IMG/VR virus record: IMGVR_UViG_3300022555_000016
Reading direction: 5' to 3' (one strand)
Length of the DNA stretch: 20,000 bases
From: an uncultured virus (IMG/VR IMGVR_UViG_3300022555_000016)
Taxonomy: Duplodnaviria; Heunggongvirae; Uroviricota; Caudoviricetes
Below are positions 5,499 to 20,000 of this stretch, one piece after another (within the stretch, counting starts at the first letter, position 1; every line of letters starts with the position of its first letter). Position numbers and translations under genes: made by a program. The notes below the pieces were generated by a model, which was not told the origin of the DNA, did not search any database, and saw only the letters and a program-made list of their open reading frames with translations.

Positions 5499-7232
5499 TC
5501 AACCGACGTAGTGATTGCCTCTAATTAACCGTGAGTCCTTCTGAATCTGAATCTTGAAAGGTGTTGTTAGTACCTTCTTGACCCAGTCTTGGTCAACCGT
5601 AGGCAATCCCATACGAGTCTTGAACTTTCTAAGGACGTTTACTGAGGATTGAACGTCAGAGTGAACATGAATCCCTTTAGCGGTGATATACAAGCCTCGT
5701 CGGACCCGTGTACCACTGTAATGAGGACTGGGAGCACCCTTAACATAGCATGGAGGGAGATAGTCACCGTCCATAGCAGACCCTTTACTAGTGTGTGATT
5801 CATTCTGTAAGTGGACTGTAATACCTACTGCTACGCACTTGTAGGTTAACATTTCCACGAACCGATTGAAGGGGAGCCTAGTAAAGTTCTTCATACCCTT
5901 AGCAAACTGTTTCCAGTCTAGATTCCTACCGATAACTAGGATTACGACACCCTTCTCCACGAGCAGCTTCACTAGCGTGCTGGAAACGTTGTGGAGGTAG
6001 TGGTCCAGTCTATTTCTAAGCTTATTGTAAGCGGCTTGAATCCTCTTTGAAGAGTTCTGTGGGACTTTAGAAGTTAGAATCTGACTCAACTCCTGATCGT
6101 ACTCAGGAGGCTCGGGGTACAATGAATCGTGAGTAGCAAAAGCTTGCTGAACCATCAAACCTAGCATAAGGTAGTTAAACGGGTTGGACTCAGGGTCTTT
6201 CAACTCCCTAAGACGTTTCCTCTTCAACTCTAGCTCTTCTTTAGCTTTAGTACGTTCGTCTATTAACTGACGTTCCCTAGCCGGTTTAGACCAGTAGAGG
6301 TCCCGTTTAAGCTCTTCTATCTGGTAGTAGGACCAAAGTAATAGAGACTTCAGAATCCAACCGTTAAAGGCTATAGGCTTTGGATTACCTTCGATTACCC
6401 CAGCGGCTGTAACGTTTAACCCTAGGTCAAAGCTTGCTATGGCTTGTAGTTCTTCCTGCTTAGCAGTCCAGTTACCTGTAATCTCTTCGTTGTAGACTAC
6501 TTCTACGTTGTAACCACCTACTATTGGTATGTAGCGTACTTCCGTGATTCCAACGTCTCTTAGGACAGGTTTACCCCTGGAATCCTTCTTTATAGCTTGT
6601 TTACCGTTAGCGTCGGTAACAACTTGAGGTTGCATGTGGAGGGTGAAGGGTATTTCCTGTTTAAACTCAGGATTCTTAGGGCAAAGGGTGATGATTCCCT
6701 TGGGAGCAATAGACTCTGATAACCTAGCGCCTTTGACCTGTTTCCTATCAGAATCAATGATCTGACCACCGGACATGGTCTGGTAGGTAAATTTAACAGG
6801 CTTACGACTGTCAGTCCTACGGATGTACTTATCACCCTTGAATCCAGGCGGTTGAGGGCAAGCCTTGTACTTCTTAGGAAACTGTTTCTGGAGTTCCTTG
6901 CTTTTAGTCCACTCCCAGAAGTCAAACCAAGCTGCTTCGAAGGACTTCCAGTCGTCATGGAGCATCTTAACGGTAGCTTGAGCTACTTTAGCAGGTAACC
7001 GTTGGTACTCTAGAGTCGGTTTTAACAGCTTAACTAGCTCTGGTAGACTAGGAATCCTACGCCGTTGGAAGCCTGGTTTCTTATAGTTGTCTTGGTTGTA
7101 ATTCCAGATTTCTAGTAGAAGGTGGAGACCTACATGATAGAGTTTGGAGGACAAAAAGCAAGTACGATCAATACTCCTATCCCAAGGGTGTTTTGGACCT
7201 ACAAACTGTTTTTGAGTCCTAGTTTCTAACAT
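5499..7232 (-). CDS. tnpB: TnpB-like RNA-guided endonuclease (IS200/IS605 OrfB), rearranged-RuvC type, enlarged
   Basis: RuvC-I IASFDLGLN; LDHYLHNVS bridge region; LVIGRNLDWKQ (canonical Glu replaced by Gly); LTYKC...GITVHLQNESHTSK (relocated Glu); RVRRGLY; RuvC-III HSDVQSSVNVLRK; no CxxC zinc finger. Confidence 0.88.
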   Translation of the reverse strand: MLETRTQKQFVGPKHPWDRSIDRTCFLSSKLYHVGLHLLLEIWNYNQDNYKKPGFQRRRIPSLPELVKLLKPTLEYQRLPAKVAQATVKMLHDDWKSFEAAWFDFWEWTKSKELQKQFPKKYKACPQPPGFKGDKYIRRTDSRKPVKFTYQTMSGGQIIDSDRKQVKGARLSESIAPKGIITLCPKNPEFKQEIPFTLHMQPQVVTDANGKQAIKKDSRGKPVLRDVGITEVRYIPIVGGYNVEVVYNEEITGNWTAKQEELQAIASFDLGLNVTAAGVIEGNPKPIAFNGWILKSLLLWSYYQIEELKRDLYWSKPARERQLIDERTKAKEELELKRKRLRELKDPESNPFNYLMLGLMVQQAFATHDSLYPEPPEYDQELSQILTSKVPQNSSKRIQAAYNKLRNRLDHYLHNVSSTLVKLLVEKGVVILVIGRNLDWKQFAKGMKNFTRLPFNRFVEMLTYKCVAVGITVHLQNESHTSKGSAMDGDYLPPCYVKGAPSPHYSGTRVRRGLYITAKGIHVHSDVQSSVNVLRKFKTRMGLPTVDQDWVKKVLTTPFKIQIQKDSRLIRGNHYVG

Positions 7233-9673: not shown

Positions 9674-10741
9674 TCATGGCTTACTTGGCTTACGCTTCGA
9701 GTTAATGTCAACTACGTTAGGAGAAGCAAACTTCTTAACTTTTGGTTTAGTAGTTAACTTCTTCAACTCAGTCTTAATTGTTGCCAACTCTGTACGGTAT
9801 CCCTGCATCAAAGCATCAACTTCTGTCTTAAAGGTCTCATGCTTCTCGGTCAAAACGTTGATTCTCAGTCGTAGATGAGAGTTGGCAGATTGTAACTTAC
9901 CAAAATCAACAGCTAACTTAAGACAAACATCTAGGTTTGAACGAGTCATAGTCACAGTCTGGTTTAGATCGTTTGCTAAATCAGCCACCTTAGCAGGAAT
10001 TGGAGCAGAGAGTTTCTTGACACGTAGCCCCAACTTTTTAGTTCTAGCGGCTGACTTAGCTACATCGTCCACACAGGTCTCTGTGTCAATTACTGCGTTC
10101 GCTACTTGCTCAGCCACAGAAGTCTTAATCTTTGAAGTTACTTCTGGAGTTAGTTTGTTGAGAAGCTTCATCAGCGTAGGCTCTTGTTCGGCAAGAACCG
10201 TCTTAATTACATCCTGAACATCTCCCATAGTCATGTAGCGAGGGTACGGCTCAACCTCCTTTGAGTTTGAGTAGGGAGGATGCCACATGTCCTGACGAGG
10301 TGGATTGTTAGCGGCGTCAAACTTACCAATTTTACGGATAGAAGGAAGGACGGTTCCTGTAACCCACTTACGAAACTTGTGCGGCGTCGTACCTGCCGTA
10401 GTAGCTAGACGACAACGGAGCGTTAAACTATAGAACCCTGATTCGTTAATCAAAGTAACCAGTTTAGCACCACTTACCAGACCCTCCGTTGAACCGAGGG
10501 TCGAGGCCAACCCATTGATTTTGCTCATTATATCCTGAAATCCAGGCTCACCGTACTTAACTAGTGAATGCTCATCCTCGTCTAGTTGGTTCTTAGCACT
10601 ACTGGGATTCTTGATGCCTAGGAACTTGCACACGTCAACCAACTTAAACCAAGGTTCATCATTCTTAATAAAGACGATTAGTGGGTTACCAGCAAAGTCA
10701 AACGTCTGCTTGTCGTACACGGTAGTAGCCTTACTAGTCAT
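9674..10741 (-). CDS. BRO-N domain protein (antirepressor-like) with C-terminal coiled coil
   Basis: EPWFKLVDVCKFLGIKNP, LINESGFYSLTLRCR and FRKWVTGTVLPSIRKIG are BRO-N signatures. Start at ATG 10741, downstream of the promoter. Confidence 0.9.
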   Translation of the reverse strand: MTSKATTVYDKQTFDFAGNPLIVFIKNDEPWFKLVDVCKFLGIKNPSSAKNQLDEDEHSLVKYGEPGFQDIMSKINGLASTLGSTEGLVSGAKLVTLINESGFYSLTLRCRLATTAGTTPHKFRKWVTGTVLPSIRKIGKFDAANNPPRQDMWHPPYSNSKEVEPYPRYMTMGDVQDVIKTVLAEQEPTLMKLLNKLTPEVTSKIKTSVAEQVANAVIDTETCVDDVAKSAARTKKLGLRVKKLSAPIPAKVADLANDLNQTVTMTRSNLDVCLKLAVDFGKLQSANSHLRLRINVLTEKHETFKTEVDALMQGYRTELATIKTELKKLTTKPKVKKFASPNVVDINSKRKPSKP

Positions 10742-10796
10742 AGTGAACAACCCTTTCTCAAGGGAGGTCAAGCTGATTCCTGACCTACCGACTATG

Positions 10797-10825
10797 ACCC
10801 TACACCCTTCCGAATCCTTTGTCAA
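10797..10825 (-). promoter_or_regulatory. Sigma70-like promoter of the BRO gene
   Basis: TTGACA (10825-10820), 17 nt spacer, TAGGGT (10802-10797); AT-rich upstream. Confidence 0.6.
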
Positions 10826-10906
10826 GAAAAATCTAAAATTTTTGTTAATAAGAAAATTTGTCAAGCAAAATCAAAGGTTTGTCTGTCTATGAGAGTTTGA
10901 TGAATC

Positions 10907-10944
10907 AAAAAACCCAGTAAACTCTAGTTAAAGAGTTTACTGGG
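10907..10944 (-). terminator. Rho-independent terminator after the glycosyltransferase-like gene
   Basis: 13-bp perfect stem (10913-10925 / 10932-10944) followed by TTTTTT on the minus strand. Confidence 0.85.
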
Positions 10945-10984
10945 CTTAAGAGCTACTAAACTACTTAGACAAGCAGACAGCGGT

Positions 10985-12031
10985 CTAGTCCTCTAAACTG
11001 TCTTCATTCCTACTACGGAAGTATTTACGTAGAAGGTCACGTAAGGTTATATTGTTTCCAGATAGTACGGGGAGACCTTGCCAATCGTCTACTAAGTCTA
11101 CATCAGGATCAAACTTTGAATCAACGATTACGCTTCTACGAGAAACATAGCCTCGATGCTTCTTAGAACCATGATGGTTGTGTGCTATAGTACCGGAAAT
11201 ATAGCCTATGTTCTTACGAACGTACTGGCTACATAGCTGTACAAACCTAGACAAGCGGCGACGATAACCTGGAGTAATAGTGTCTGGATCAATGAAGTCT
11301 ACTGAAGAATGATCTAAATTTAACAAACCTGCAAAGGAGAGTGCCATGACATAGTCTGCTGCTCCAGTAACACACCAGTCTAAAATGCCAATCTTGTCGT
11401 AAATCTCTTTACGAATTGCCCAGGCGTAGCCATAATGACTCTTAGGAGCTTTAAAGCTATGACCGTAGTCAGCGTTAGGTACTTCCCGAAAGTCCCCGTC
11501 TACCCACGCCGCACAGAATGACTTATCTACGGTAGAACCATGCTCATTTTGAATAATCTCTCCTTTTGCGGAAAGATCAACTGAATTGGACCAAGGTTGC
11601 ACGACTGCGTAGTGCTGTAAAGCAGCAATCGTTTTACTAGCCCACTGAGCGTCAAGAAATGTCAAGTCAGCATCAATCCAAGCAATGTACTTAGCATCAT
11701 GAGGGACAGCACGACTAATTCCTACTTTAATTAAAGCCTCTTTTAACCAAGTCTCATGGCGTTCATCACCACGCAGTTGGACATGGAAAGGATTAGCAGC
11801 GTCAGTTACTTCCCACGGACGATTACCGAAAGCGTGCTCTACACGAATAACTTGAACGTTAGGTGTAGACTCCAAACGCTCAACACATTGGAGAAATAGA
11901 GGAACACGACTTTTCCAACCAACGGGATTAGACAACACGGCGATACAGTAAAGTGTGTTTTCTGGGTCTAAACCGCTACGTGGGTCTTTAGGATGACTAT
12001 AGTGTAAACCAACATTAAGTTTGTTTGACAT
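10985..12031 (-). CDS. GT-A fold glycosyltransferase-like protein
   Basis: WLKEALIKVGI, YIAWIDADLTF (DxD), VVQPWS, GYAWAIR, GAADYVMA and late HNHHG. Start at ATG 12031 behind AGAAGG. Confidence 0.7.
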   Translation of the reverse strand: MSNKLNVGLHYSHPKDPRSGLDPENTLYCIAVLSNPVGWKSRVPLFLQCVERLESTPNVQVIRVEHAFGNRPWEVTDAANPFHVQLRGDERHETWLKEALIKVGISRAVPHDAKYIAWIDADLTFLDAQWASKTIAALQHYAVVQPWSNSVDLSAKGEIIQNEHGSTVDKSFCAAWVDGDFREVPNADYGHSFKAPKSHYGYAWAIRKEIYDKIGILDWCVTGAADYVMALSFAGLLNLDHSSVDFIDPDTITPGYRRRLSRFVQLCSQYVRKNIGYISGTIAHNHHGSKKHRGYVSRRSVIVDSKFDPDVDLVDDWQGLPVLSGNNITLRDLLRKYFRSRNEDSLED

Positions 12032-12170
12032 TTCTTGAAACCTTCTTAAAATTATTAACCTCAGCCCTACGATCAAAATTAAGAACCAATAGTAGTTTTT
12101 AAAGACGTTGTTACAAAACGACACAATTTTTCTTAGTTTTACCACAATTTTGTAACATTACTACCAGGCG

Positions 12171-12205
12171 TAAAAAGAGTCCAGTAGCACGAAAACTACT
12201 GGACT
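12171..12205 (-). terminator. Terminator hairpin after the second endonuclease VII gene
   Basis: agtccagtag (12178-12187) / ctactggact (12196-12205), followed by CTTTTT on the minus strand. Confidence 0.75.
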
Positions 12206-12245
12206 TCAAGGACACATTGACTGGAAGATAGCTAGTAACACTAAA

Positions 12246-13259
12246 CTAAGTTTGTTCTCTAAGTTTTGCAGCGTTTAAGTAGTCAATGGCACGTCTGATT
12301 AGTTTAGTCTTGTCTCTAAACTCACCTAACGCTACATTGCATGTGCGACAAGCGTAGCCTCTAATTAAACCTGTAGTGTGGCAATGTTCAATTTCAAGGT
12401 AAGGAACGTCATTACCACAGATAGCGCAAGTGCAGTAAGTAGATGATACTTTATCAAGTAACTTTCTTAAGTACCTACCATGAGCTGCGTTGTTTTTACC
12501 TTTAAAACCATTCAAAACCGTATGGATCATTAGCCTAACCCTAATGGAAAACTTAACGTTCTCTATTACAATTACAGCAATTTTAGACCTTGAAAAGTTA
12601 AGCAGCTTACTAATAGTTTTAGTTGACTTGCCAGATTCCCATAAACCTATTACTTTTTTAGCAAAGTCTATTTTAATAGCTCTACGTGTAGCACTTCCCT
12701 TATCAATACTCTCCTTAAGAGGAGATGCTCTTTTTAAGATATTATTAGGAATACTGTTTTTAGTAAGAGCCTTGCTAACAGTATTCACAGAAATATTAAA
12801 TTTTGCTCCAACTTCAGCCTTGGTAACATTAGGTTCAGAAAGATAAGCTTTACAGATTTGTTTTTCCAGCTTACCTGTCAACTTCCTAGAATTTGGCCTA
12901 CCTGCGGCGTTAACTAGTCTAATAACTATACCGTTTTCTTCTAAGACTTTCCTTATGGTATGCTTGCTTACCCCGTAGTCTTTAGCAAGTTTAACCAAGT
13001 TTTGTAATTTAATATAGTCTTTTGCTATGGCGGCTTCCTCCGCCTCAGAAAAAACATGCCTACCATTAACCATAGGACGTGTAAACTCTTTTTTACGATC
13101 TTTCCTAAACTGCCTACGCTTAACTACCCTTACGCCGTGCTTTGCCCGCACTTTGCGTACAATATAACCACTAACATTACAAATCTTACCTGCTTCTTTT
13201 AAGTTAAAGCAAGAATTATAGGCGTTTATTATAAGAAGCTCATCTTCTTTGGACAACAT
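12246..13259 (-). CDS. Endonuclease VII-domain (His-Me finger) protein with four N-terminal HTH-like repeats
   Basis: C-terminal CAICG...IEHCHTTGLIRGYACRTCNVALG...AIDYL; repeats such as LVKLAKDYGVSKHTIRKVL and AEVGAKFNISVNTVSKAL. Confidence 0.88.
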   Translation of the reverse strand: MLSKEDELLIINAYNSCFNLKEAGKICNVSGYIVRKVRAKHGVRVVKRRQFRKDRKKEFTRPMVNGRHVFSEAEEAAIAKDYIKLQNLVKLAKDYGVSKHTIRKVLEENGIVIRLVNAAGRPNSRKLTGKLEKQICKAYLSEPNVTKAEVGAKFNISVNTVSKALTKNSIPNNILKRASPLKESIDKGSATRRAIKIDFAKKVIGLWESGKSTKTISKLLNFSRSKIAVIVIENVKFSIRVRLMIHTVLNGFKGKNNAAHGRYLRKLLDKVSSTYCTCAICGNDVPYLEIEHCHTTGLIRGYACRTCNVALGEFRDKTKLIRRAIDYLNAAKLREQT

Positions 13260-13287
13260 GTGTAAATCCTTTATACTTAAGGTTAAA

Positions 13288-13989
13288 CTAAAGCGGATAC
13301 TTTAAGTAAAGTATCGCCGATTCCATATAGTCAGTATTGTCTTTAAGCAGCCCTAATCCCGAGTTGCAACAGTAACATAAGTAACCTCTAATAGCACCAC
13401 TTACGTGGCAATGATCTATAGTTAAAGATTCTACTTCTCCACAAATGTCACACGCTCTAGGTTTAATGTCTAGCATACGTCTTAAGTACTCCTTACTAGA
13501 TTCATAACTGGTACCTAATAAATTTGTTGTAACGTAAGTTATTAGGCTTTCAATCTTCTTAGAGAAGTGCCTATTTTCACAAATGTAGTCTGCTACGTTA
13601 TATATAGGCTTCCTAATGTTAGCAGAAATAGTGTCAATATTAACACCTTCATCCCACATAGTTAGTATACTATTAAACGTATCTTTATGCTTACGGACTC
13701 TTTCTTTTAAAGCTTCCTCAGAATTAGCGTGTTTTATAGATTCTTCATGTATAGCTTTACGTTTATTACGTTGAAATTCCGTATTAGTAGGTATTCCAAA
13801 GGAATTTAAAATTCTACTAACTGTAGTACAACCAACATTATATTTAATGGCTAAAGAACTAATGTTAGCGGAGGGAGTTTCATACTCACGACATAAGGCT
13901 ACTTTTTGCTCATAAGATAAAAAGGTTTTAGACTTACTTTTAATAATTGAAGTGTCTAAACAAAAATCTATATCATGTTTCTTAAGCAC
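13288..13989 (-). CDS. Endonuclease VII-domain protein with HTH repeats (main part; N-terminus lies in the upstream frame)
   Basis: CDICG...IDHCHVSGAIRGYLCYCCNSGLGLLKDN...AILYL; HTH ISSLAIKYNVGCTTVSRIL. Confidence 0.88.
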   Translation of the reverse strand: MLKKHDIDFCLDTSIIKSKSKTFLSYEQKVALCREYETPSANISSLAIKYNVGCTTVSRILNSFGIPTNTEFQRNKRKAIHEESIKHANSEEALKERVRKHKDTFNSILTMWDEGVNIDTISANIRKPIYNVADYICENRHFSKKIESLITYVTTNLLGTSYESSKEYLRRMLDIKPRACDICGEVESLTIDHCHVSGAIRGYLCYCCNSGLGLLKDNTDYMESAILYLKYPL

Positions 13990-14096
13990 TTTTTAATCTT
14001 ATAAACTGTAGTACTAAACCTAACAGCCGTGCCATTTAAGTTTGAACTTTTGGTATAGAAATCGACAATGGTTAATTCTTGCTCTTGAGTAAACAT
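13968..14096 (-). pseudogene. Frameshifted N-terminal HTH of the endonuclease VII gene
   Basis: GAAGGA SD, then MFTQEQELTIVDFYTKSSNLNGTAVRFSTTVYKIKK..., which aligns with the paralog's MLSKEDELLIINAY...IVRKV. One extra A in the run at 13990-13994 joins it to VLKKHDIDF. Confidence 0.75.
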
Positions 14097-14115
14097 AACT
14101 AAAATCCTTCTAGGT

Positions 14116-14529
14116 TTACAGTTTGCGTTGAAGTTCAATGAACGCTAGAATCTCTTTAACGGAGGAGGAACCTACTGTAGCAATGAAACAATTCTTGGTC
14201 CACATGCAAGGGATTCGACTCTTTAGGTCAGGAAACTTGGACCGTAGAATCCTAGCTGAACCATCTTTGATCTTATCAACTATAGACATAATAGTTACGG
14301 TTGGGGGTATGTCTACTACTACGTGAACATGGTCGTCTGTAATCTCCACTCCCAATAACACGTAACCAAACTCTACTTGTTTGTCTCTAATGAATCCCTT
14401 TAATACTGTAGAAATACCGTCAACCAAGACATGACGACGATACTTGGGGCAGAACACTATGTGGTACTGACAGGAGAAAACCTTGTTGTTTTCCTTACGG
14501 TAGGCTTTCTTGGGAGGCTTTACCAACAT
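14116..14529 (-). CDS. tnpA: IS200/IS605 Y1 (HUH) transposase TnpA homolog, catalytic Tyr replaced by Phe
   Basis: YHIVFCPKYRR, DHVH (HUH), IPP, KDGSARILR and MWTKNCFIATVG. C-terminal helix reads ILAFIELQ where the family has YIxxQ. Confidence 0.9.
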   Translation of the reverse strand: MLVKPPKKAYRKENNKVFSCQYHIVFCPKYRRHVLVDGISTVLKGFIRDKQVEFGYVLLGVEITDDHVHVVVDIPPTVTIMSIVDKIKDGSARILRSKFPDLKSRIPCMWTKNCFIATVGSSSVKEILAFIELQRKL

Positions 14530-14639
14530 TTTAGAATATTCCTTATAAGTAGACTCTTAGTTTAACATAGCTCCTATCTTAAAATTAGATTATTACCAAA
14601 TTTTAAAGGCTGATAGTAAAAGAAAATTTTACTCTCGTA

Positions 14640-14678
14640 AAAAGACAAAAGCCTTAGGAGATTATCTCCTAAGGCTTT
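14640..14678 (-). terminator. Palindromic hairpin/terminator after hfq
   Basis: aaagccttaggaga-tta-tctcctaaggcttt (14648-14678), followed by TGTCTTTTT on the minus strand. Confidence 0.8.
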
Positions 14679-14748
14679 AAGATCACATTGACTGAGTCAT
14701 AGTAGATAAACTGATGATAGTAAGTTACTAGAGAAGTTGAATAACGTC

Positions 14749-14949
14749 TCAGTTACTCGCGCTACACGGTAGTACTGTCGATACAGCTTGGATGAATACT
14801 ATTTGCTCAATACCTCTCCCAAATAGCTTGATAACTTTAGCATCAAATGCGGTGATCTGACCTTGAAGCTTAATTCCACTATTTAGGAAGATTGTGACTT
14901 CGGCTCTACGAGCTACCAAATCAGACAGAAAATCTTCTTGTACAGACAT
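14749..14949 (-). CDS. hfq: Hfq/Sm-like RNA chaperone homolog (66 aa)
   Basis: VQEDFL...VTIFLNSGIKLQGQITAFD...QIVFIQAVSTVLP aligns over the whole Sm1/Sm2 core of Hfq (LQDPFL...VSIYLVNGIKLQGQIESFD...QMVYKHAISTVVP). Start at ATG 14949 behind AAAGGGA. Confidence 0.92.
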   Translation of the reverse strand: MSVQEDFLSDLVARRAEVTIFLNSGIKLQGQITAFDAKVIKLFGRGIEQIVFIQAVSTVLPCSASN

Positions 14950-15174
14950 GTTAATAAGTCCCTTTATTATGAGGCACTTTTTCAAAAGTGACCTTCTTTG
15001 TTGAAAATAGATAAAATTTTAGTCATTATAGCAAACAACCAAACCCACACCCTTAAACTAAAATTAGGATTATTAAAAATATCTATTATAGTTAACTTAT
15101 AATTTAACGGTACGTATAGCTACTTAGTCATTAAAATCAAGGCATTATAGGCAGATAAACATAGTAGAATTTAG

Positions 15175-15217
15175 ACAAAAAGAAACCCTGTTGGACAATT
15201 AAGCCCAACAGGGTTTC
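15175..15217 (-). terminator. Rho-independent terminator after nrdJ
   Basis: 13-bp stem gaaaccctgttgg (15182-15194) / ccaacagggtttc (15205-15217), followed by a T run on the minus strand. Confidence 0.85.
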
Positions 15218-15240
15218 AGGTTTACAGAGTCAAAGTCAAG

Positions 15241-18200
15241 TTAACCACATTTAGAGTAACCGCAGTCTAAACAGGATTGGCACCCTTCTTTACGTATTAA
15301 ACTAGGCTGTTGGCACTTTGGGCAAATTTCACCCAGCACCTTAGGCTTAACACTAGAATCAACCTGTTCAATGTTAACTAAACGGTCCTTACTGGTGTCG
15401 TGATAGTTAATACTTTGTAAGTGCTGATGTATGATTATACCGATGTACGCAGTTAAGGATGGGATATATTTACCCTTAACCCATTGACCGCCTTGAGGAG
15501 AGTGCGTCTGCAAAAGCTCTTCAATTACGAAACTAGCATCTGTTCCGTCATCAGCGGAACGACGGAAGATTCCAGATATCATCCGGGTCAAGGCTACGAT
15601 TAACTCTAGGCTCTCTACGGCTTTAGTATTAACAAAAAGCTCAAAGGGAAGAACCTTACCGTCTTCCGAAATTATATTGTTAATAGTTATGTAGTAAGCG
15701 CGTGAAGAGTCTACACCCCACTTTATCTTATAAGACTTACCTTCCAGAACATCAGGCCGCTCAGGCTTACCGTTCTTGCTCATTTTCTTAGTAACCTTTT
15801 CTTCTTGAGGCAAAGCTTTTAGCTCGTCAGCAGTTACTGCTTCAGAAGTGACACTTAATATACTACCACGATTAGGATTGGGGCGATAGGTAGTAACTCC
15901 CTTACACCCCGTATCGTAAGCGGTCATGTATACAGACTTAAACTCATCAAAAGTTATAGACTCAGGACAGTTAACAGTTTTACTAACAGCAGCGTCAATA
16001 TACGTCTGACAAGCAGCTTGCATAGCTAAATGTTCATCAACAGTAAGTTCTAAGGCTGTAACCATACTATTAGGCAAACTGCTTAAAGAAGCAGTTACTG
16101 GGTCAAGCTTGTTTACTGAACAATATAGCTGCCATCCGCGATCACAAACAGCAAACTCCTTAAATGACTCGTCTAACTGGCGAACTTTCCTATAGTACCT
16201 GAAAGAAAAAGTTGGCTCCAACCCTGAAGATACATTACCGTAGTACAGACTAGTTGTACCATTAGGAGCACAGGTCTGTAGCACGGCATTACGGATACCA
16301 GTCTTCCTTATTAACTTTTGAGTATCCTTAGGTAAGTCTTTAAAGAAATGATTATCACACCACCCTTTACTGTACAAAGGAAAGGCTCCACGCTCTACAG
16401 CTAATTCAGCGGACGCGTGATAAACAGTATCACGCCAAGTTTTTAAAGTGGATTTAGTCCAATCTAAAGATTCCGAACTTCCGTAGCGTAAACCTAACGC
16501 TTGTAAAGCACTAGCTAAACCTAAAAACCCTGCGCCAATCCTACGCTTACTATCAGACTCTTCTTCTTGCATAAGTAGAGGCCAATTAGTTATGTCTAAT
16601 ACGTTATCTAGAAACCTCACTCCTAAAGATGCGACCTTCTTCATACGATCTAAATCGAAACTGGCATTTTTAGTAAAAGGTTCACGAACAAAAGACAGTA
16701 GATTTATAGCACCTAAGTCACACGTTCCGTAGGGAGGCAACGGTTCCTCGCCGCAATTTCCGGTTGTAATTCCTACAGCCAGTGCAACTTTGTGGTGTGG
16801 TTTTACTGTACAGCAGTAGACTTCCTTATCGATACCATCTGGTTCAATGGATACCACTTTACTGTACTTAGGCTTAGGAAGCCTATTGCTTACAGTTTTA
16901 TTTGAAAAGTTTTTAAGCCTACTAAACTCAACTTGCTTAGCCAAGTTAATTGAGTCAATTTGACTAAGACCTAACCGCCAAGACTCTTGACAATAATAAT
17001 TACCGCCTGGCATGTCCTTATAACAAGCTGCTTTCATAAGACCTAACTTAGAATTCACACCTAAAGACTTAAGAAGTGTTTGAATATCAATTAAAAAACC
17101 TTTTTCAACGGAGCTTAATTGATAACCAAACCCATTGGTTTTTGAATCTTTAACTGTACCATCTGCGTCAAAAAGACCTGCTAAAAATTCACACTTAGTA
17201 GCATAGTCCCAAGAGAAGCAATACCTAGGCAAACGACTCTTATACTTGGACGCCCAGTTATCTAAACGACCGTCATTATTCCGAACAGTTAGTCCAGACA
17301 TTTGCCATTTAGTAGGCATACTTGGCGATACCGAAAACCCTAATTCAACCTCTGCGTTAGTGTTAACTGCACCAACTTCAAGTTCCGAAGCAGACTCAAT
17401 TAACCTAGAAGCACAACAATGCTTAGGTTCATATAGGAACAGATTTAGGCGTGACTTGCCTGAGTCTCGCGTAGAAGTATGCCCATCGCCTACCAAGAAA
17501 CCCTTAAGATAAGCTGCTGGTTCCCAACGCGTACCATTATACTCTACAGTAGCCAACTCTAACCTATGACCGACTTTCAAATCTTTAGCTTTAAGCTTAG
17601 TACCGTTATCCAAATAAAACGAATGCTCTGTTGTAACTCTCAACGAAGAACCATCATAGAGAGTTACTTTCAACATAGGTTGATTGTTGCCAGTAACCCT
17701 AAAGTTGTCAACGTCAACCCAGGAAGTACCATCCCATATGGTTACTAACTTTCCTACCAACTTTTTAATAGGCTTAGCCCCGTTATTGGTGATAATTAAA
17801 GTATCCGCTGAAAAACAGGGATTAGTTGCAGAGATGACCTCACCACTATACTTTAAGTTGTTTCTGGAGTTTATCTCATCAATAAAAATTACCCCAGGCT
17901 CTGCCATAGAGTAAGTGCTAGTCATAATAGCATCCCAAAGTTCAACCGCAGGCAAAACTTTGTATACATACCAAGGCTTACCGTTTTTTTCTTTAACAGA
18001 AACTACGGTAGTCAGATCAACAGGAGGAATACCAAAACCTAATTCCCAAACACCGCCGGATTTTACAGAAGTCATCAATTTACTAGTGACTAAAACTGAC
18101 ATATTAAAATTTAGCAAAATTCCTGACTTCTGCTTGGCGGTTATAAATTCAAAAATGTCAGGGTGATCATCTGCCATAACTGCCATCATAGCACCTCTCC

Positions 18201-18678
18201 GACTCGACCCAGAGAGAATAGCTTGGCACATAGAATCAAACATTTTCATAAAAGAAATTGGACCACTAGAAGTGGAGCCTGTAGCTTTAACTATAGCACC
18301 TTTAGGACGTAAAGTAGAAAAATCAAAACCAATACCTCCACCTTGTTGCATAGTTAACGCCGCTTCTTTTAACTTTTCCATGATGTCTGCCATAGAATCA
18401 TCTATAGTACCAGACACAAAGCAGTTTAAAGAAGTAGTCTTGTGATCAGTACCAGCACTAGCATGAATCCTACCAGCAGGATTCCATTCGCGGTTAATCA
18501 TTGCTTCTAGCACGAGAGGCATAAACTCATCACGCCTAGTATCCTTTTCATAAACAGCGGAAACGACCCTTTTAAAAGAGTCTTCAATTGACTGTTCATT
18601 ACCTTCCGCCCACCGATACTTCTCGCGCCAAATATAGTCAACAATTGGATCGTAAGGGACAAAATTTGATACTGTCAT
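15241..18678 (-). CDS. nrdJ: Class II (adenosylcobalamin-dependent) ribonucleotide reductase with intein, C-terminal TSCPD-like domain and Zn ribbon
   Basis: PAGRI, NCFV, QQGGGIGFDFSTLRPKG, RRGAMM, NP|CGEEPL, CDLGAINL, APNGTTS, SSGLEP, KGVTTYR; terminal CPKC...EGCQSCLDCGYSKCG. Confidence 0.96.
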   Translation of the reverse strand: MTVSNFVPYDPIVDYIWREKYRWAEGNEQSIEDSFKRVVSAVYEKDTRRDEFMPLVLEAMINREWNPAGRIHASAGTDHKTTSLNCFVSGTIDDSMADIMEKLKEAALTMQQGGGIGFDFSTLRPKGAIVKATGSTSSGPISFMKMFDSMCQAILSGSSRRGAMMAVMADDHPDIFEFITAKQKSGILLNFNMSVLVTSKLMTSVKSGGVWELGFGIPPVDLTTVVSVKEKNGKPWYVYKVLPAVELWDAIMTSTYSMAEPGVIFIDEINSRNNLKYSGEVISATNPCFSADTLIITNNGAKPIKKLVGKLVTIWDGTSWVDVDNFRVTGNNQPMLKVTLYDGSSLRVTTEHSFYLDNGTKLKAKDLKVGHRLELATVEYNGTRWEPAAYLKGFLVGDGHTSTRDSGKSRLNLFLYEPKHCCASRLIESASELEVGAVNTNAEVELGFSVSPSMPTKWQMSGLTVRNNDGRLDNWASKYKSRLPRYCFSWDYATKCEFLAGLFDADGTVKDSKTNGFGYQLSSVEKGFLIDIQTLLKSLGVNSKLGLMKAACYKDMPGGNYYCQESWRLGLSQIDSINLAKQVEFSRLKNFSNKTVSNRLPKPKYSKVVSIEPDGIDKEVYCCTVKPHHKVALAVGITTGNCGEEPLPPYGTCDLGAINLLSFVREPFTKNASFDLDRMKKVASLGVRFLDNVLDITNWPLLMQEEESDSKRRIGAGFLGLASALQALGLRYGSSESLDWTKSTLKTWRDTVYHASAELAVERGAFPLYSKGWCDNHFFKDLPKDTQKLIRKTGIRNAVLQTCAPNGTTSLYYGNVSSGLEPTFSFRYYRKVRQLDESFKEFAVCDRGWQLYCSVNKLDPVTASLSSLPNSMVTALELTVDEHLAMQAACQTYIDAAVSKTVNCPESITFDEFKSVYMTAYDTGCKGVTTYRPNPNRGSILSVTSEAVTADELKALPQEEKVTKKMSKNGKPERPDVLEGKSYKIKWGVDSSRAYYITINNIISEDGKVLPFELFVNTKAVESLELIVALTRMISGIFRRSADDGTDASFVIEELLQTHSPQGGQWVKGKYIPSLTAYIGIIIHQHLQSINYHDTSKDRLVNIEQVDSSVKPKVLGEICPKCQQPSLIRKEGCQSCLDCGYSKCG
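16756..17817 (-). mobile_element. Intein (354 aa) with LAGLIDADG homing endonuclease in nrdJ
   Basis: Begins CFSADT after ATNP; block B VTTEHSF; LAGLIDADG motifs LKGFLVGDG and FLAGLFDADG; block F VYCCTV; ends ITTGN before +1 Cys (CGEEP). Confidence 0.95.
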
Positions 18679-19098: not shown

Positions 19099-19127
19099 TA
19101 TCTATCTCCATCAGCATTATAAATAAT

Positions 19128-19166
19128 CACTGGAAACCTCCACCTTTTAAGGTGAGGAGGAAAGCG
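19128..19166 (-). mobile_element. Right-end hairpin of the IscB-bearing IS200/IS605 element
   Basis: Minus strand TTCCTCCTCACCTTAAAAGGTGGAGGTTTCC directly after the iscB stop, resembling the usual iscB 3' end pattern (TTCCTCCCC..CCTAAAGG..GGGGTTTCC). Confidence 0.75.
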
Positions 19167-19174
19167 ATTCCTTT

Positions 19175-19828
19175 CTATTTTAAGGGTTGAATCAAAGTGG
19201 TGCTTCTAGCTTGTAGTCTAACACACCCCTTCTTAACATTAACACTGTTAGACACTACAGTACCGTCCAGCTTAACTACAGAGAAACTTCCGGTAGACCG
19301 TTTACCTTTAATGAATCCGGTGCCTTTAGGAGTCTGAATCAGGTCAAACGTCCTAAAGCCGAACAGCTTACCTCTAGGGTAAATCTTCTCAGACCCTAGA
19401 CCCCAACGTTGTTGGTAGTCACCGTGAGCTACGTGTTTCTTGTAGTACACTGGAGTGTCGGCTAGCACTGAAGTAATCTTGATACCACAAGCTATAGCTA
19501 TAGCGTCGTTAGCGTGGGTCTTAGGTAGACCTAACTTCTCCCGTTTAAGTTTAGTCTGGTAACCAAAGGTCTCAACAAACTCCCAATCAGATTTCTTTAA
19601 TTGACTAGAAATGATTCCCATTTCCGTTGGATGTTTGGTAGCAGACCTTTTAGTCGGTAGAGTTATTTTACCGTCATGAATCTCTTTGTGGCGGTCCTTA
19701 CAGACTGCTATCAGGTTAGCAGGGTCGTTGGTACCACCTTCAGACCTAGGAATCTTGTGGTGAACATGAAGTACCTTAGAGTGCTTACCTGTCTTTACCT
19801 GACACTTGTAATCGTCCCTAGCTAGAAT
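19175..19828 (-). pseudogene. iscB: C-terminal half of IscB (HNH, RuvC-III, C-terminal domain), interrupted at the start of the HNH
   Basis: The frame extends upstream of the track's ATG: ILARDDYKCQ...LHVHHKIPRSEGGTNDPANLIAVCKDRHKEIH (HNH), ETFGYQTK, KTHANDAIAIA (RuvC-III), LFGFRTFDL...GFIKGKRSTGSF. Confidence 0.88.
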
Positions 19829-19965
19829 GTGAACAACTCCGGGCTTAAAGCCCTGGAGCTTCCCCCTCGCGGGTGGGAAGTTACTCTTTCGACGAGGACT
19901 GCTGACCCTATCGGGTAGTCTTACACCCTCTCCAGAGTCGTGAATTACCAGTATACCTCCGGTAT
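19829..19965 (-). ncRNA. Right end/omegaRNA scaffold of a TnpB-type IS200/IS605 element inserted in iscB
   Basis: Minus strand ACCGGAGG..CTGGTAATTCACGACTCTGGAGAGGGTGTAAGAC...GCAGTCCTCG..GAAAG, stems ACCC-GATA-GGGT and CCC-GCGA-GGG, terminal hairpin CTCCAGGGC-TTTAA-GCCCGGAG (19858-19837), end motif TTCAC (19833-19829). This follows the known TnpB right-end RNA layout. Confidence 0.8.
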
Positions 19966-20000
19966 TTCTCAGAGACTCAGATTCTTTTTGACATAGAACC

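What the first reader, a model, noticed from the sequence alone, without database searches (positions are those of the whole stretch)
12171..14700. Candidate new cassette: catalytically dead TnpA co-transcribed with two HTH-repeat endonuclease VII nucleases
Seen: tnpA is full length with HUH intact but has F at the catalytic Tyr position (FIELQ). It is followed after 19 nt, not by tnpB/iscB, but by two paralogous multi-HTH + EndoVII genes. The three genes lie between two hairpins. Known: Y1 TnpA needs this Tyr for strand transfer but recognises ssDNA hairpins independently. Inference: a domesticated hairpin-binding TnpA could regulate or target the nucleases, or this is an IS200-like element whose passenger is a protein-guided EndoVII homing nuclease. 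I do not know of this gene combination being described.
Basis: partly seen in the sequence, partly recalled or inferred. Interest (0 to 1): 0.78.

Follow-up and report, generated by a model that had tools for sequence, protein, structure and literature searches.

The report
Dead transposase beside two homing nucleases
A large freshwater phage carries an IS200-type transposase gene that has lost its cutting residue yet looks kept by selection, and two selfish homing-nuclease genes next to it that are probably unrelated neighbours rather than partners.

Summary
tnpA (14116-14529, minus strand) is full length with HUH and Gln intact. Phe130 aligns without gaps to the catalytic Tyr127 of the solved ISHp608 TnpA. 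Nineteen bases downstream begin two paralogous genes with an HTH array and a C-terminal EndoVII motif, of the F-CphI/DHHRN homing-endonuclease type. The first is split by a -1 frameshift. The flanking hairpins are ordinary terminator-like stems, but they share unique flanks (11-mer and 9-mer).

No relative links tnpA to EndoVII genes: 35 of 49 viral relatives sit beside tnpB, none beside EndoVII. The nuclease genes are much more AT-rich than tnpA, so the adjacency looks like a pile-up of selfish genes.

The Tyr loss is not a trivial recent hit. Two other divergent TnpA-like proteins (Tyr->Trp; HUH->SIH) share the same 208,448-base longest contig. All three have terminal branches about six times the canonical median. 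All 117 nearest canonical relatives keep Tyr. Of 133 assessable cluster representatives, 28 carry Phe or Trp there.

Best reading (about 0.5): an exapted, non-catalytic TnpA-like DNA binder with homing-endonuclease genes inserted behind it. I could not fetch the paralogues' neighbourhoods.

The parts
14749..14985 (-). hfq-like gene, the upstream neighbour
   Evidence: Pfam Hfq 4.1e-14
14675..14694 (-). Boundary motif copy 1 (CAGTCAATGTG plus 9 more bases), immediately 5' of hairpin 1
   Evidence: 17 of 20 bases identical to copy 2, spacing 2471 nt (D7). The exact 11-mer occurs only at these two places in the window.
14648..14678 (-). Hairpin 1: perfect 14-15 bp stem with a T run, terminator-like, after hfq
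   Evidence: I13; z -6.25
14636..14644 (-). CTTTTTACG copy 1, 3' of hairpin 1
   Evidence: The exact 9-mer occurs only twice in the window, each time just after a boundary hairpin.
14116..14529 (-). tnpA-like gene, 137 aa. HUH (H67, H69) and Q134 are intact. The catalytic Tyr is replaced by Phe130 (codon TTC, 14142-14140).
13968..14096 (-). 42-codon ORF: the detached first HTH repeat of nuclease 1
13990..13994 (-). A5 run where the frame of nuclease 1 switches by -1
   Evidence: Identical in contigs of X1, X6 and X8. No downstream RNA structure (z +0.41).
13288..13989 (-). Nuclease 1 main frame (233 codons): HTH repeats plus a C-terminal EndoVII motif (CxxC, DHCH, R, CxxC-N)
12246..13259 (-). 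Nuclease 2 (337 aa): about four to five HTH repeats plus a C-terminal EndoVII motif (CxxC, EHCH, R, CxxC-N)
12204..12223 (-). Boundary motif copy 2
12178..12205 (-). Hairpin 2: 10-11 bp stem with a T run, terminator-like, after nuclease 2
   Evidence: z -4.01
12169..12177 (-). CTTTTTACG copy 2
10985..12145 (-).
   Evidence: No Pfam hit. 38% identical to a hypothetical protein of one jumbo phage record. I did not confirm the name.

Best explanation
The stretch holds two different things placed side by side between two terminators in a phage of about 208 kb from fresh water.

(1) A TnpA-like protein of the IS200/IS605 Y1 family that cannot carry out strand transfer, because its nucleophile Tyr is Phe. 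Its fold, HUH and Gln are kept. It is probably one of three divergent TnpA-like paralogues of this phage, each hit at a different catalytic residue. I therefore read it as an exapted, non-catalytic DNA-binding protein kept by selection, most likely a binder of single-stranded hairpins. I do not read it as a live transposase or as fresh debris.

(2) Two AT-rich, paralogous free-standing homing-endonuclease genes of the F-CphI/DHHRN kind, with an N-terminal HTH array for target recognition and a C-terminal EndoVII-type His-Me nuclease. They most likely inserted between tnpA and its terminator. The first is already frameshifted.

Shown: the residues, the domain content, the frameshift, the composition contrast, the lack of conserved linkage, and the fast evolution of the TnpA-like proteins.

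Inferred: residence of the paralogues in the same genome (from equal longest-contig length), selection, DNA binding, and co-transcription (from the gene spacing and the absence of an internal terminator only).
For: - Tyr to Phe at the position that aligns with Y127 of the solved enzyme.
- Tyr is present in 17 of 17, 43 of 43 assessable of 49, 15 of 15 assessable of 16 and 117 of 117 relatives.
- P0027 (HUH reads SIH) and P0031 (Tyr to Trp) have a longest contig of 208,448, the same as the window's TnpA and both nucleases.
- The three deviate at 13, 21 and 17 of 55 conserved columns. Canonical members deviate at a mean of 1.75 and at most 9. Positions R42, M64, G89 and V127 are lost in all three.
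- Terminal branches are 1.43, 1.78 and 1.59 against a median of 0.24.
- Among 133 assessable cluster representatives, 28 have Phe or Trp at this column against 10 with any other non-Tyr residue. Of those 28, 22 also lack an intact HUH. This aromatic bias is what selection for the fold without chemistry would give.
- The ESM Atlas model of this protein is confident (pTM 0.80).
- Nucleases: the EndoVII motif residues named in PMC6083498 (section 7 read) are present and C-terminal.
- GC3 is 0.26 and 0.31 for the nuclease genes, against 0.46 for tnpA and a GC of 0.42 for the rest of the window.
- 0 of 89 neighbouring ORFs of relatives carry Endonuclease_7.
- The same strand has no terminator-like site inside the cassette.
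Against: - Residence of the three TnpA-like proteins in one genome rests only on identical longest-contig length, source sets and similar contig counts. I could not fetch that DNA.
- No DNA of close variants was available, so no dN/dS could be computed. The only variant, P0017, differs by 2 residues and also has Phe.
- Tyr to Phe is a single base change, and the window protein still has HUH, so a fairly recent loss in this copy cannot be excluded.
- The long branches could partly reflect unsampled canonical relatives.
- The unique 11-mer and 9-mer around both boundary hairpins are not explained by 'unrelated neighbours'. They could mean the three genes form or formed one unit.
- Many of the Phe/Trp representatives sit on short metagenome contigs and could include decaying copies.
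Confidence: 0.5

Rival explanations
1. Plain decay. An IS200-type element landed in the phage, lost its nucleophile by one base change and is on its way out. The protein has no function, and the neighbours are further selfish genes in a permissive intergenic spot.
For: TAC to TTC is one change. HUH, Gln and 42 of 55 conserved columns remain. Nuclease 1 beside it is visibly decaying (frameshift). The region is rich in selfish genes: intein, HNH, TnpB-like. All canonical relatives keep Tyr.
Against: The ORF is intact despite a terminal branch about six times the median. Three such proteins on what appears to be one contig each carry a different catalytic lesion and none has a stop. The replacements are aromatic, and Trp needs two base changes. 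The sequence is identical in runs of two laid studies.
Confidence: 0.2
2. The dead TnpA binds the flanking hairpins or other single-stranded hairpins and regulates or aims the two nucleases, and the three genes work as one operon.
For: The spacing is tight (19 nt and 28 nt) with AAGGA-type ribosome sites and no internal terminator. The unique 11-mer plus 9-mer flank both boundary hairpins.
Against: Linkage is not conserved in any relative examined. Composition differs between tnpA and the nuclease genes. One nuclease is frameshifted. The HTH arrays already give the nucleases their own means of target recognition.
Confidence: 0.12
3. A composite IS200-like element, now immobile, whose ends are the two motif-plus-hairpin modules. 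Either a roughly 2.5-kb transposon carried protein-guided homing nucleases in the place of tnpB, or a roughly 0.7-kb IS200-type unit was later invaded by the nuclease genes.
For: The direct repeat (17 of 20 bases) plus the 9-mer brackets exactly the low-GC cassette. From my own recall, IS200's left end holds a terminator-like hairpin; I checked this in no call.
Against: Model R1 of the subfamily's left-end hairpin matches 8 of 8 training loci by construction. It gives weaker partial matches 1.4-1.9 kb downstream in 6 of them, but nothing at 14648-14678 or 12178-12205; the best window hit lies elsewhere, at 18.9 bits and E about 0.1. The two stems differ in sequence. The motif gave only 3 matches in IMG/VR, all without a hairpin or homology. 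The composition is not uniform.
Confidence: 0.12
4. Complementing half-sites. Y1 TnpA dimers build each active site from the HUH of one subunit and the Tyr of the other. A heterodimer of the window protein (or P0031), which has HUH but no Tyr, with P0027, which has Tyr but a broken HUH, would have exactly one working site. It would act as a site-specific single-strand nickase rather than a transposase.
For: The trans arrangement of HUH and Y127 is stated in the abstract of PMC3597680 (seen in the listings). The lesions are complementary: P0001 and P0031 keep HUH and lack Tyr, while P0027 keeps Tyr and Gln and lacks the first His.
Against: The paralogues are only 33-39% identical, so heterodimerisation is unproven. 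P0027 also has Glu for Asp66 and 21 deviations at conserved columns. Among other representatives both motifs are usually lost together (22 of 28), which points to no chemistry at all.
Confidence: 0.06

Closest known systems
IS200/IS605-family Y1 transposase TnpA (solved examples: ISHp608 TnpA 2a6m and 2vjv; ISDra2 TnpA 2xm3)
   Same: Same fold family and length. HUH and the Gln of the Y---Q helix are present. E 3e-31 to the solved ISHp608 chain. Nested within a canonical 137-aa subfamily, with 43-50% identity.
   Different: The nucleophile Tyr is Phe. No subfamily-type end hairpins were found. There is no adjacent tnpB. The branch is about six times longer than those of canonical members.
F-CphI / DHHRN homing endonucleases (EndoVII catalytic motif at the C-terminus; PMC6083498: abstract and sections 7 and 9 read)
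   Same: C-terminal CxxC, D/E-H-x-H, R and CxxC-N motif, with a separate N-terminal DNA-binding part. The genes stand free in a phage between unrelated genes.
   Different: The N-terminal part here is an array of HTH repeats with no full-length relative. There are two tandem paralogues. One has Glu for the first Asp, and the other is frameshifted. No intron is nearby (Rfam: 0 matches).
RAYT / TnpA_REP (domesticated Y1 transposases flanked by REP hairpins; abstracts of PMC8266576 and PMC3333891 seen in listings)
   Same: A single-copy TnpA relative that no longer behaves as an IS and has hairpins on both sides.
   Different: RAYTs keep the catalytic Tyr and have Y---NP (passage of PMC6006769). 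The window protein has F---Q and gave no REP_Tyr_transpos match at E up to 0.001. The flanking hairpins are in direct orientation and look like terminators.
TldR and other nuclease-dead TnpB or Cas12f relatives exapted as regulators (abstracts seen in the listing)
   Same: A precedent from the same transposon family for a catalytic protein that lost its chemistry and was kept as a sequence-specific binder.
   Different: That precedent concerns TnpB, not TnpA, and it is RNA-guided. No function has been shown here.

Membership tests
IS200/IS605 Y1 transposase (TnpA) | Y1_Tnp fold / family profile | tested here: met
   PF01797 at 1.2e-29. NF033573 at 108 bits against a cut-off of 55. E 3e-31 to 2a6m.
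IS200/IS605 Y1 transposase (TnpA) | HUH metal-binding motif | tested here: met
   H67-V-H69 aligns with H64 and H66 of 2a6m.
IS200/IS605 Y1 transposase (TnpA) | Catalytic Tyr in the class-1 Y---Q helix | tested here: not met
   Phe130 aligns with Y127, while Q134 is kept. 117 of 117 nearest relatives have Tyr. The Y---Q rule is from a passage of PMC6006769.
IS200/IS605 Y1 transposase (TnpA) | Subterminal imperfect-palindrome ends (LE and RE) around the gene | tested here: not met
   Model R1, built from 10 relatives' left ends, finds no match at the cassette boundaries. The model covers only this subfamily's hairpin type, so other end types are not excluded.
IS200/IS605 Y1 transposase (TnpA) | Several identical copies in a genome (mobility) | not testable with these tools
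   No genome is held for the window. There is only one copy in the 20-kb window. The paralogues are 33-39% identical and are not copies.
IS605 (tnpA plus tnpB) | tnpB or iscB adjacent to tnpA | tested here: not met
   The next genes are the EndoVII genes. The TnpB-family gene lies at 5499-7232, 6.9 kb away.
DHHRN / F-CphI homing endonuclease | CX2-4C, DHxH, R and CX2C-N motif | tested here: met
   Nuclease 1 has CDIC, DHCH, R and CYCC-N. Nuclease 2 has CAIC, EHCH (Glu for Asp), R and CRTC-N. PF02945 at 1e-16 and 2e-15.
DHHRN / F-CphI homing endonuclease | Motif at the C-terminus (endonuclease clade rather than resolvase clade) | tested here: met
   Motif at residues 158-230 of 233 and 276-329 of 337. 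I built no tree of the EndoVII domain.
DHHRN / F-CphI homing endonuclease | Site-specific cleavage of a nuclease-gene-less allele, and presence/absence among related genomes | not testable with these tools
   No related phage with or without the genes was found.
RAYT / TnpA_REP | Y---NP motif and REP_Tyr_transpos profile | tested here: not met
   The window protein has F---Q. It gave no NF047646 match at E up to 0.001. P0031 scores only 32 bits against a cut-off of 80.

The most novel reading that the evidence does not exclude
Nucleophile-less TnpA-like proteins (Tyr replaced by Phe or Trp, often with HUH also lost, and Gln kept) may be a widespread, undescribed exapted branch of the Y1 transposases. 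This phage would keep three of them as sequence- or structure-specific single-strand DNA binders. The motif-hairpin-motif modules that bracket the cassette could be their binding sites. The complementary lesions (HUH kept with Tyr lost, against Tyr kept with HUH lost) could give a heterodimer with a single trans active site, that is, a programmed nickase.
Probability: 0.15. Interest if true: 0.8.

Novelty: new variant of a known kind. Interest (0 to 1): 0.55.

Why it matters
TnpB, the partner gene in IS200/IS605 elements, has repeatedly been turned into non-cutting regulators. An equivalent fate for TnpA turned up in none of my five full-text searches.

This locus gives a concrete case: a phage that appears to keep three TnpA-like proteins with three different catalytic lesions. 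It also points to a sizeable population of Phe/Trp variants in metagenomes. If these proteins are hairpin binders kept by selection, they would be a new class of small single-strand-DNA-recognising proteins. They would also be a new example of transposase exaptation in viruses.

The nuclease part is ordinary. It adds HTH-array members to the F-CphI/DHHRN homing-endonuclease family.

Tried and rejected
- **Empty site or related phage.** Megablast of 10900-15300 against phage records gave no match. The neighbour protein and nuclease 2 found nothing in IMG/VR. The one metagenome scan returned only an identical copy of the window, L050. No empty site could be examined.
- **Whole genome or record.** None is held, so the loci of P0027 and P0031 and a genome-wide motif count were out of reach.
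- **Boundary motif as a repeated element.** The 20-base pattern gave 3 IMG/VR matches, all inside unrelated sequence without hairpins.
- **Context of other Phe variants.** P0023 was not found in IMG/VR. In GTDB genomes it found only relatives of 29-32% identity. P0027 and P0031 have no closer relative in phage records than canonical IS copies. The alignment-based IMG/VR scan returned only Tyr-bearing loci. Ten further dead variants lie on other, mostly short, contigs.
- **RNA evidence.** No RNA holder was listed, so co-transcription is untested.
- **Reads.** No contig skipping exactly the cassette was seen. One joint, 10825 to 14614, has a side of only 30 letters and looks like a shared intergenic repeat.
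- **Complex prediction** of two TnpA copies with nuclease 2: no support (score 0.00). This is no evidence either way.
- **Programmed frameshifting in nuclease 1.** The site T_AAA_AAG is one base short of the classic heptamer (recalled), and the 86 nt that start at the site show no structure (z +0.41). I treat the frameshift as a mutation.
- **Other libraries.** The PADLOC scan gave only a type II restriction-enzyme match to the EndoVII motif. Rfam gave 0 matches in the window. Earlier findings of this scan gave nothing.
Full report
**Setting.** All genes in the region lie on the minus strand. Reading along that strand, the order is:
- hfq-like gene (14985-14749)
- a hairpin
- tnpA (14529-14116)
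- a 42-codon ORF (14096-13968)
- a 233-codon ORF (13989-13288)
- a 337-codon ORF (13259-12246)
- a second hairpin
- a 386-codon ORF with no Pfam hit (12145-10985)

The window belongs to an uncultured phage of fresh water. No genome is held for it and no phage record is near it. The same proteins occur on contigs of up to 208,448 bases. Runs from three studies of lake or fresh water hold the stretch. Elsewhere the window carries a ribonucleotide reductase with a LAGLIDADG intein, an HNH gene, a Bro-N gene and a TnpB-family gene. The neighbourhood is therefore rich in selfish genes.

**Checking the observation: tnpA.** The tnpA product is a full-length Y1_Tnp protein (PF01797 1.2e-29; NF033573 108 bits against a cut-off of 55). 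Against solved structures it aligns without gaps to ISHp608 TnpA. H67 and H69 match H64 and H66, Q134 matches Q131, and Phe130 (codon TTC, 14142-14140) stands where the nucleophile Y127 stands. A passage of PMC6006769 gives Y---Q as the class-1 signature; here it reads F---Q.

**Checking the observation: the nuclease genes.** The 19-nt gap to the next ATG is correct. Both downstream genes carry Endonuclease_7 at their C-termini and HTH hits before it. They are paralogues, 32% identical over 204 residues. One correction is needed: the first nuclease gene is split.
- The ATG at 14096 opens only 42 codons, which match an HTH repeat of the second nuclease.
- The body of the gene is in the -1 frame, from an A5 run at 13994-13990.
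- Contigs of X1, X6 and X8 (two studies) show the same letters with no gap there. X1 and X6 also cover the Phe codon unchanged.
- The 86 nt that start at the site show no structure (z +0.41), so I read the shift as a frameshift mutation, not a programmed one.

**The hairpins.** Both fold far better than shuffles (z -6.25 and -4.01). They are perfect G+C-rich stems followed by T runs, like three other strong terminator-like sites behind genes in this window.

They are unusual in one respect. Both are preceded by the same 11-mer (17 of 20 bases identical in all) and followed by the same 9-mer. Each exact word occurs only at these two places in the 20 kb. The other terminators lack both words. 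The stems themselves differ in sequence.

I built a covariance model from the left-end hairpins of ten canonical relatives.
- It matches all 8 training loci that I searched, by construction.
- It gives weaker partial matches 1.4-1.9 kb downstream in 6 of them, where right ends would lie.
- It gives nothing at either cassette hairpin. The best window match is elsewhere, at 18.9 bits and E about 0.1.

The 20-base motif has only three matches in IMG/VR, none with a hairpin or any homology. The shared flanks are real and remain unexplained.

**Is the link to the nucleases conserved?** I found no sign of it.
- For 49 IMG/VR loci with a TnpA relative, I took the nearest ORFs on each side, 89 of the 248 ORFs of at least 110 codons within 2.5 kb. 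One short locus had none.
- 35 of the 49 loci have a TnpB-type neighbour. 0 of the 89 ORFs hit Endonuclease_7 at E up to 1e-5.
- Nuclease 2 has no full-length relative among 2032 candidates. In phage records only its last 60-100 residues match.
- Composition also separates the genes. tnpA has GC 0.418 and GC3 0.457, like the backbone (0.416). The nuclease genes have GC 0.33-0.37 and GC3 0.26-0.31.
- The nucleases carry the residues that define the F-CphI/DHHRN family (CX2-4C, DHxH, R, CX2C-N; section 7 of PMC6083498), and the motif is C-terminal as in that paper's endonuclease clade. Nuclease 2 has Glu for the first Asp.

I conclude that they are free-standing homing-endonuclease genes with HTH arrays as their own recognition domains. 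They most likely arrived separately from tnpA.

**Is the Tyr loss a recent accident?** Canonical relatives say the residue is essential. Tyr is present in:
- 17 of 17 aligned homologues
- 43 of 49 viral loci, the other 6 being truncated
- 15 of 16 further loci, 1 being truncated
- 117 of 117 nearest proteins from a profile search, which also keep Gln (117) and the two His (115 and 117)

Three results argue against a trivial, fresh mutation.

First, an exhaustive search of 1.84 billion cluster representatives found no relative above 45% identity. Among the 149 other best hits, 133 could be assessed:
- 75 have Tyr plus HUH.
- 28 have Phe or Trp at the Tyr column, and 22 of these also lack an intact HUH.
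- 20 keep Tyr but lack HUH.
- 10 have some other residue, mostly with a disturbed C-terminus.

Aromatic replacements outnumber all other non-Tyr residues 28 to 10. Trp needs two base changes from a Tyr codon.

Second, two of these proteins, P0027 (HUH reads SIH, Tyr kept) and P0031 (HUH kept, Tyr to Trp), are recorded on 28 and 29 contigs with a longest contig of 208,448. They come from the same three sources as the window's TnpA and nucleases. Neither is encoded in the window. I infer that the same phage encodes all three, but I could not fetch the DNA to prove it.

Third, the three differ from canonical members in a consistent way.
- They deviate at 13, 21 and 17 of 55 columns that are at least 90% conserved, against a canonical mean of 1.75 (sd 1.7, maximum 9). 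Positions R42, M64, G89 and V127 are changed in all three.
- Their terminal branches are 1.43, 1.78 and 1.59 changes per column, against a median of 0.24.
- Their place inside the canonical 137-aa subfamily is unresolved.
- An AU test does not reject their forming one clade (p 0.51). That result shows neither common nor separate origin.

All three remain open reading frames of 137-138 codons.

**Reading.** The protein cannot form the 5'-phosphotyrosine intermediate on which peel-and-paste transposition depends (established for IS608; the abstract of PMC3597680 was seen in a listing). It is therefore not an active transposase. Intact frames on very long branches, aromatic replacements, and three differently lesioned paralogues in what appears to be one genome fit a protein kept for a non-catalytic role. 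Given what the fold does, that role is most plausibly recognition of single-stranded hairpin DNA. The target, and the benefit to the phage, are unknown.

The nuclease genes are best seen as later inserts between tnpA and its terminator. Co-transcription is plausible from the spacing and the lack of an internal terminator on that strand, but it is untested.

I put this combined reading at about 0.5. The rivals are:
- plain decay (0.2)
- an immobilised IS200-like unit whose ends are the two motif-hairpin modules (0.12)
- a heterodimer of complementary half-dead subunits with one trans active site (0.06)

**Known or new.** EndoVII-motif homing endonucleases are described (PMC6083498). Domesticated Y1 transposases that keep their Tyr (RAYTs) are described, and so are nuclease-dead TnpB regulators (listings). 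Five full-text searches and passages read in PMC6006769, PMC13565253 and PMC10691335 turned up no account of nucleophile-less TnpA proteins or of a tnpA-EndoVII cassette. Supplements were not consulted. I rate the finding a new variant of a known kind, of moderate interest.

Noticed in passing
window 5499-7232 (-): A 577-aa TnpB-family protein. Its C-terminal part (from about residue 380 to 537) matches OrfB_IS605, the Cas12f TNB domain and NF040570 (100.7 bits against a cut-off of 100). The first 380 or so residues match nothing in phage records. No tnpA lies beside it, and no left-end-like hairpin was found near it.
   Followed up: partly
window 15241-18678 (-): A ribonucleotide reductase large subunit interrupted by an intein with a LAGLIDADG domain (Pfam).
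   Followed up: no
window 14749-14985 (-): A phage hfq gene stands directly upstream of the tnpA-like gene. The abstract of PMC4513863 (search listing) reports that Hfq represses IS200 tnpA expression. This may be coincidence.
   Followed up: no
window 19113-19171 (+): The best window match to the canonical left-end hairpin model R1 (18.9 bits, E about 0.1). It lies beside an HNH gene (19175-19999). It may be only another terminator read on the other strand.
   Followed up: partly
window 10269-10825: Contigs of several runs diverge here: seven substitutions at 10661-10691, a 247-base stretch replaced by 256 other letters at 10381-10629, and many loose ends. This marks a variable spot in and upstream of the Bro-N gene.
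   Followed up: no
window 14614-14643 and 10796-10825: One contig of run X1 joins these two 30-base intergenic stretches and then runs on into unrelated sequence. This suggests that the sequence just after the hfq terminator recurs elsewhere in the phage.
   Followed up: no
L043-L047 (for example L044:6001-7942): One 229-kb viral contig holds four copies, and a second contig one copy, of a Tyr-bearing tnpA (37% identical to the window's). Each is followed by a 480-codon ORF with no Pfam hit at E up to 1e-5. L044 also has a GIY-YIG gene just upstream.
   Followed up: no
L055, L056, L058, L059, L062, L063, L065, L066 (about 100-210 nt upstream of tnpA): Canonical relatives share a nested left-end hairpin: an outer stem, GAAAG, an inner stem around a CTTTAG loop, then GGATGAAT, with clear compensatory changes. 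It could be useful as a marker for this IS605 subfamily.
   Followed up: partly
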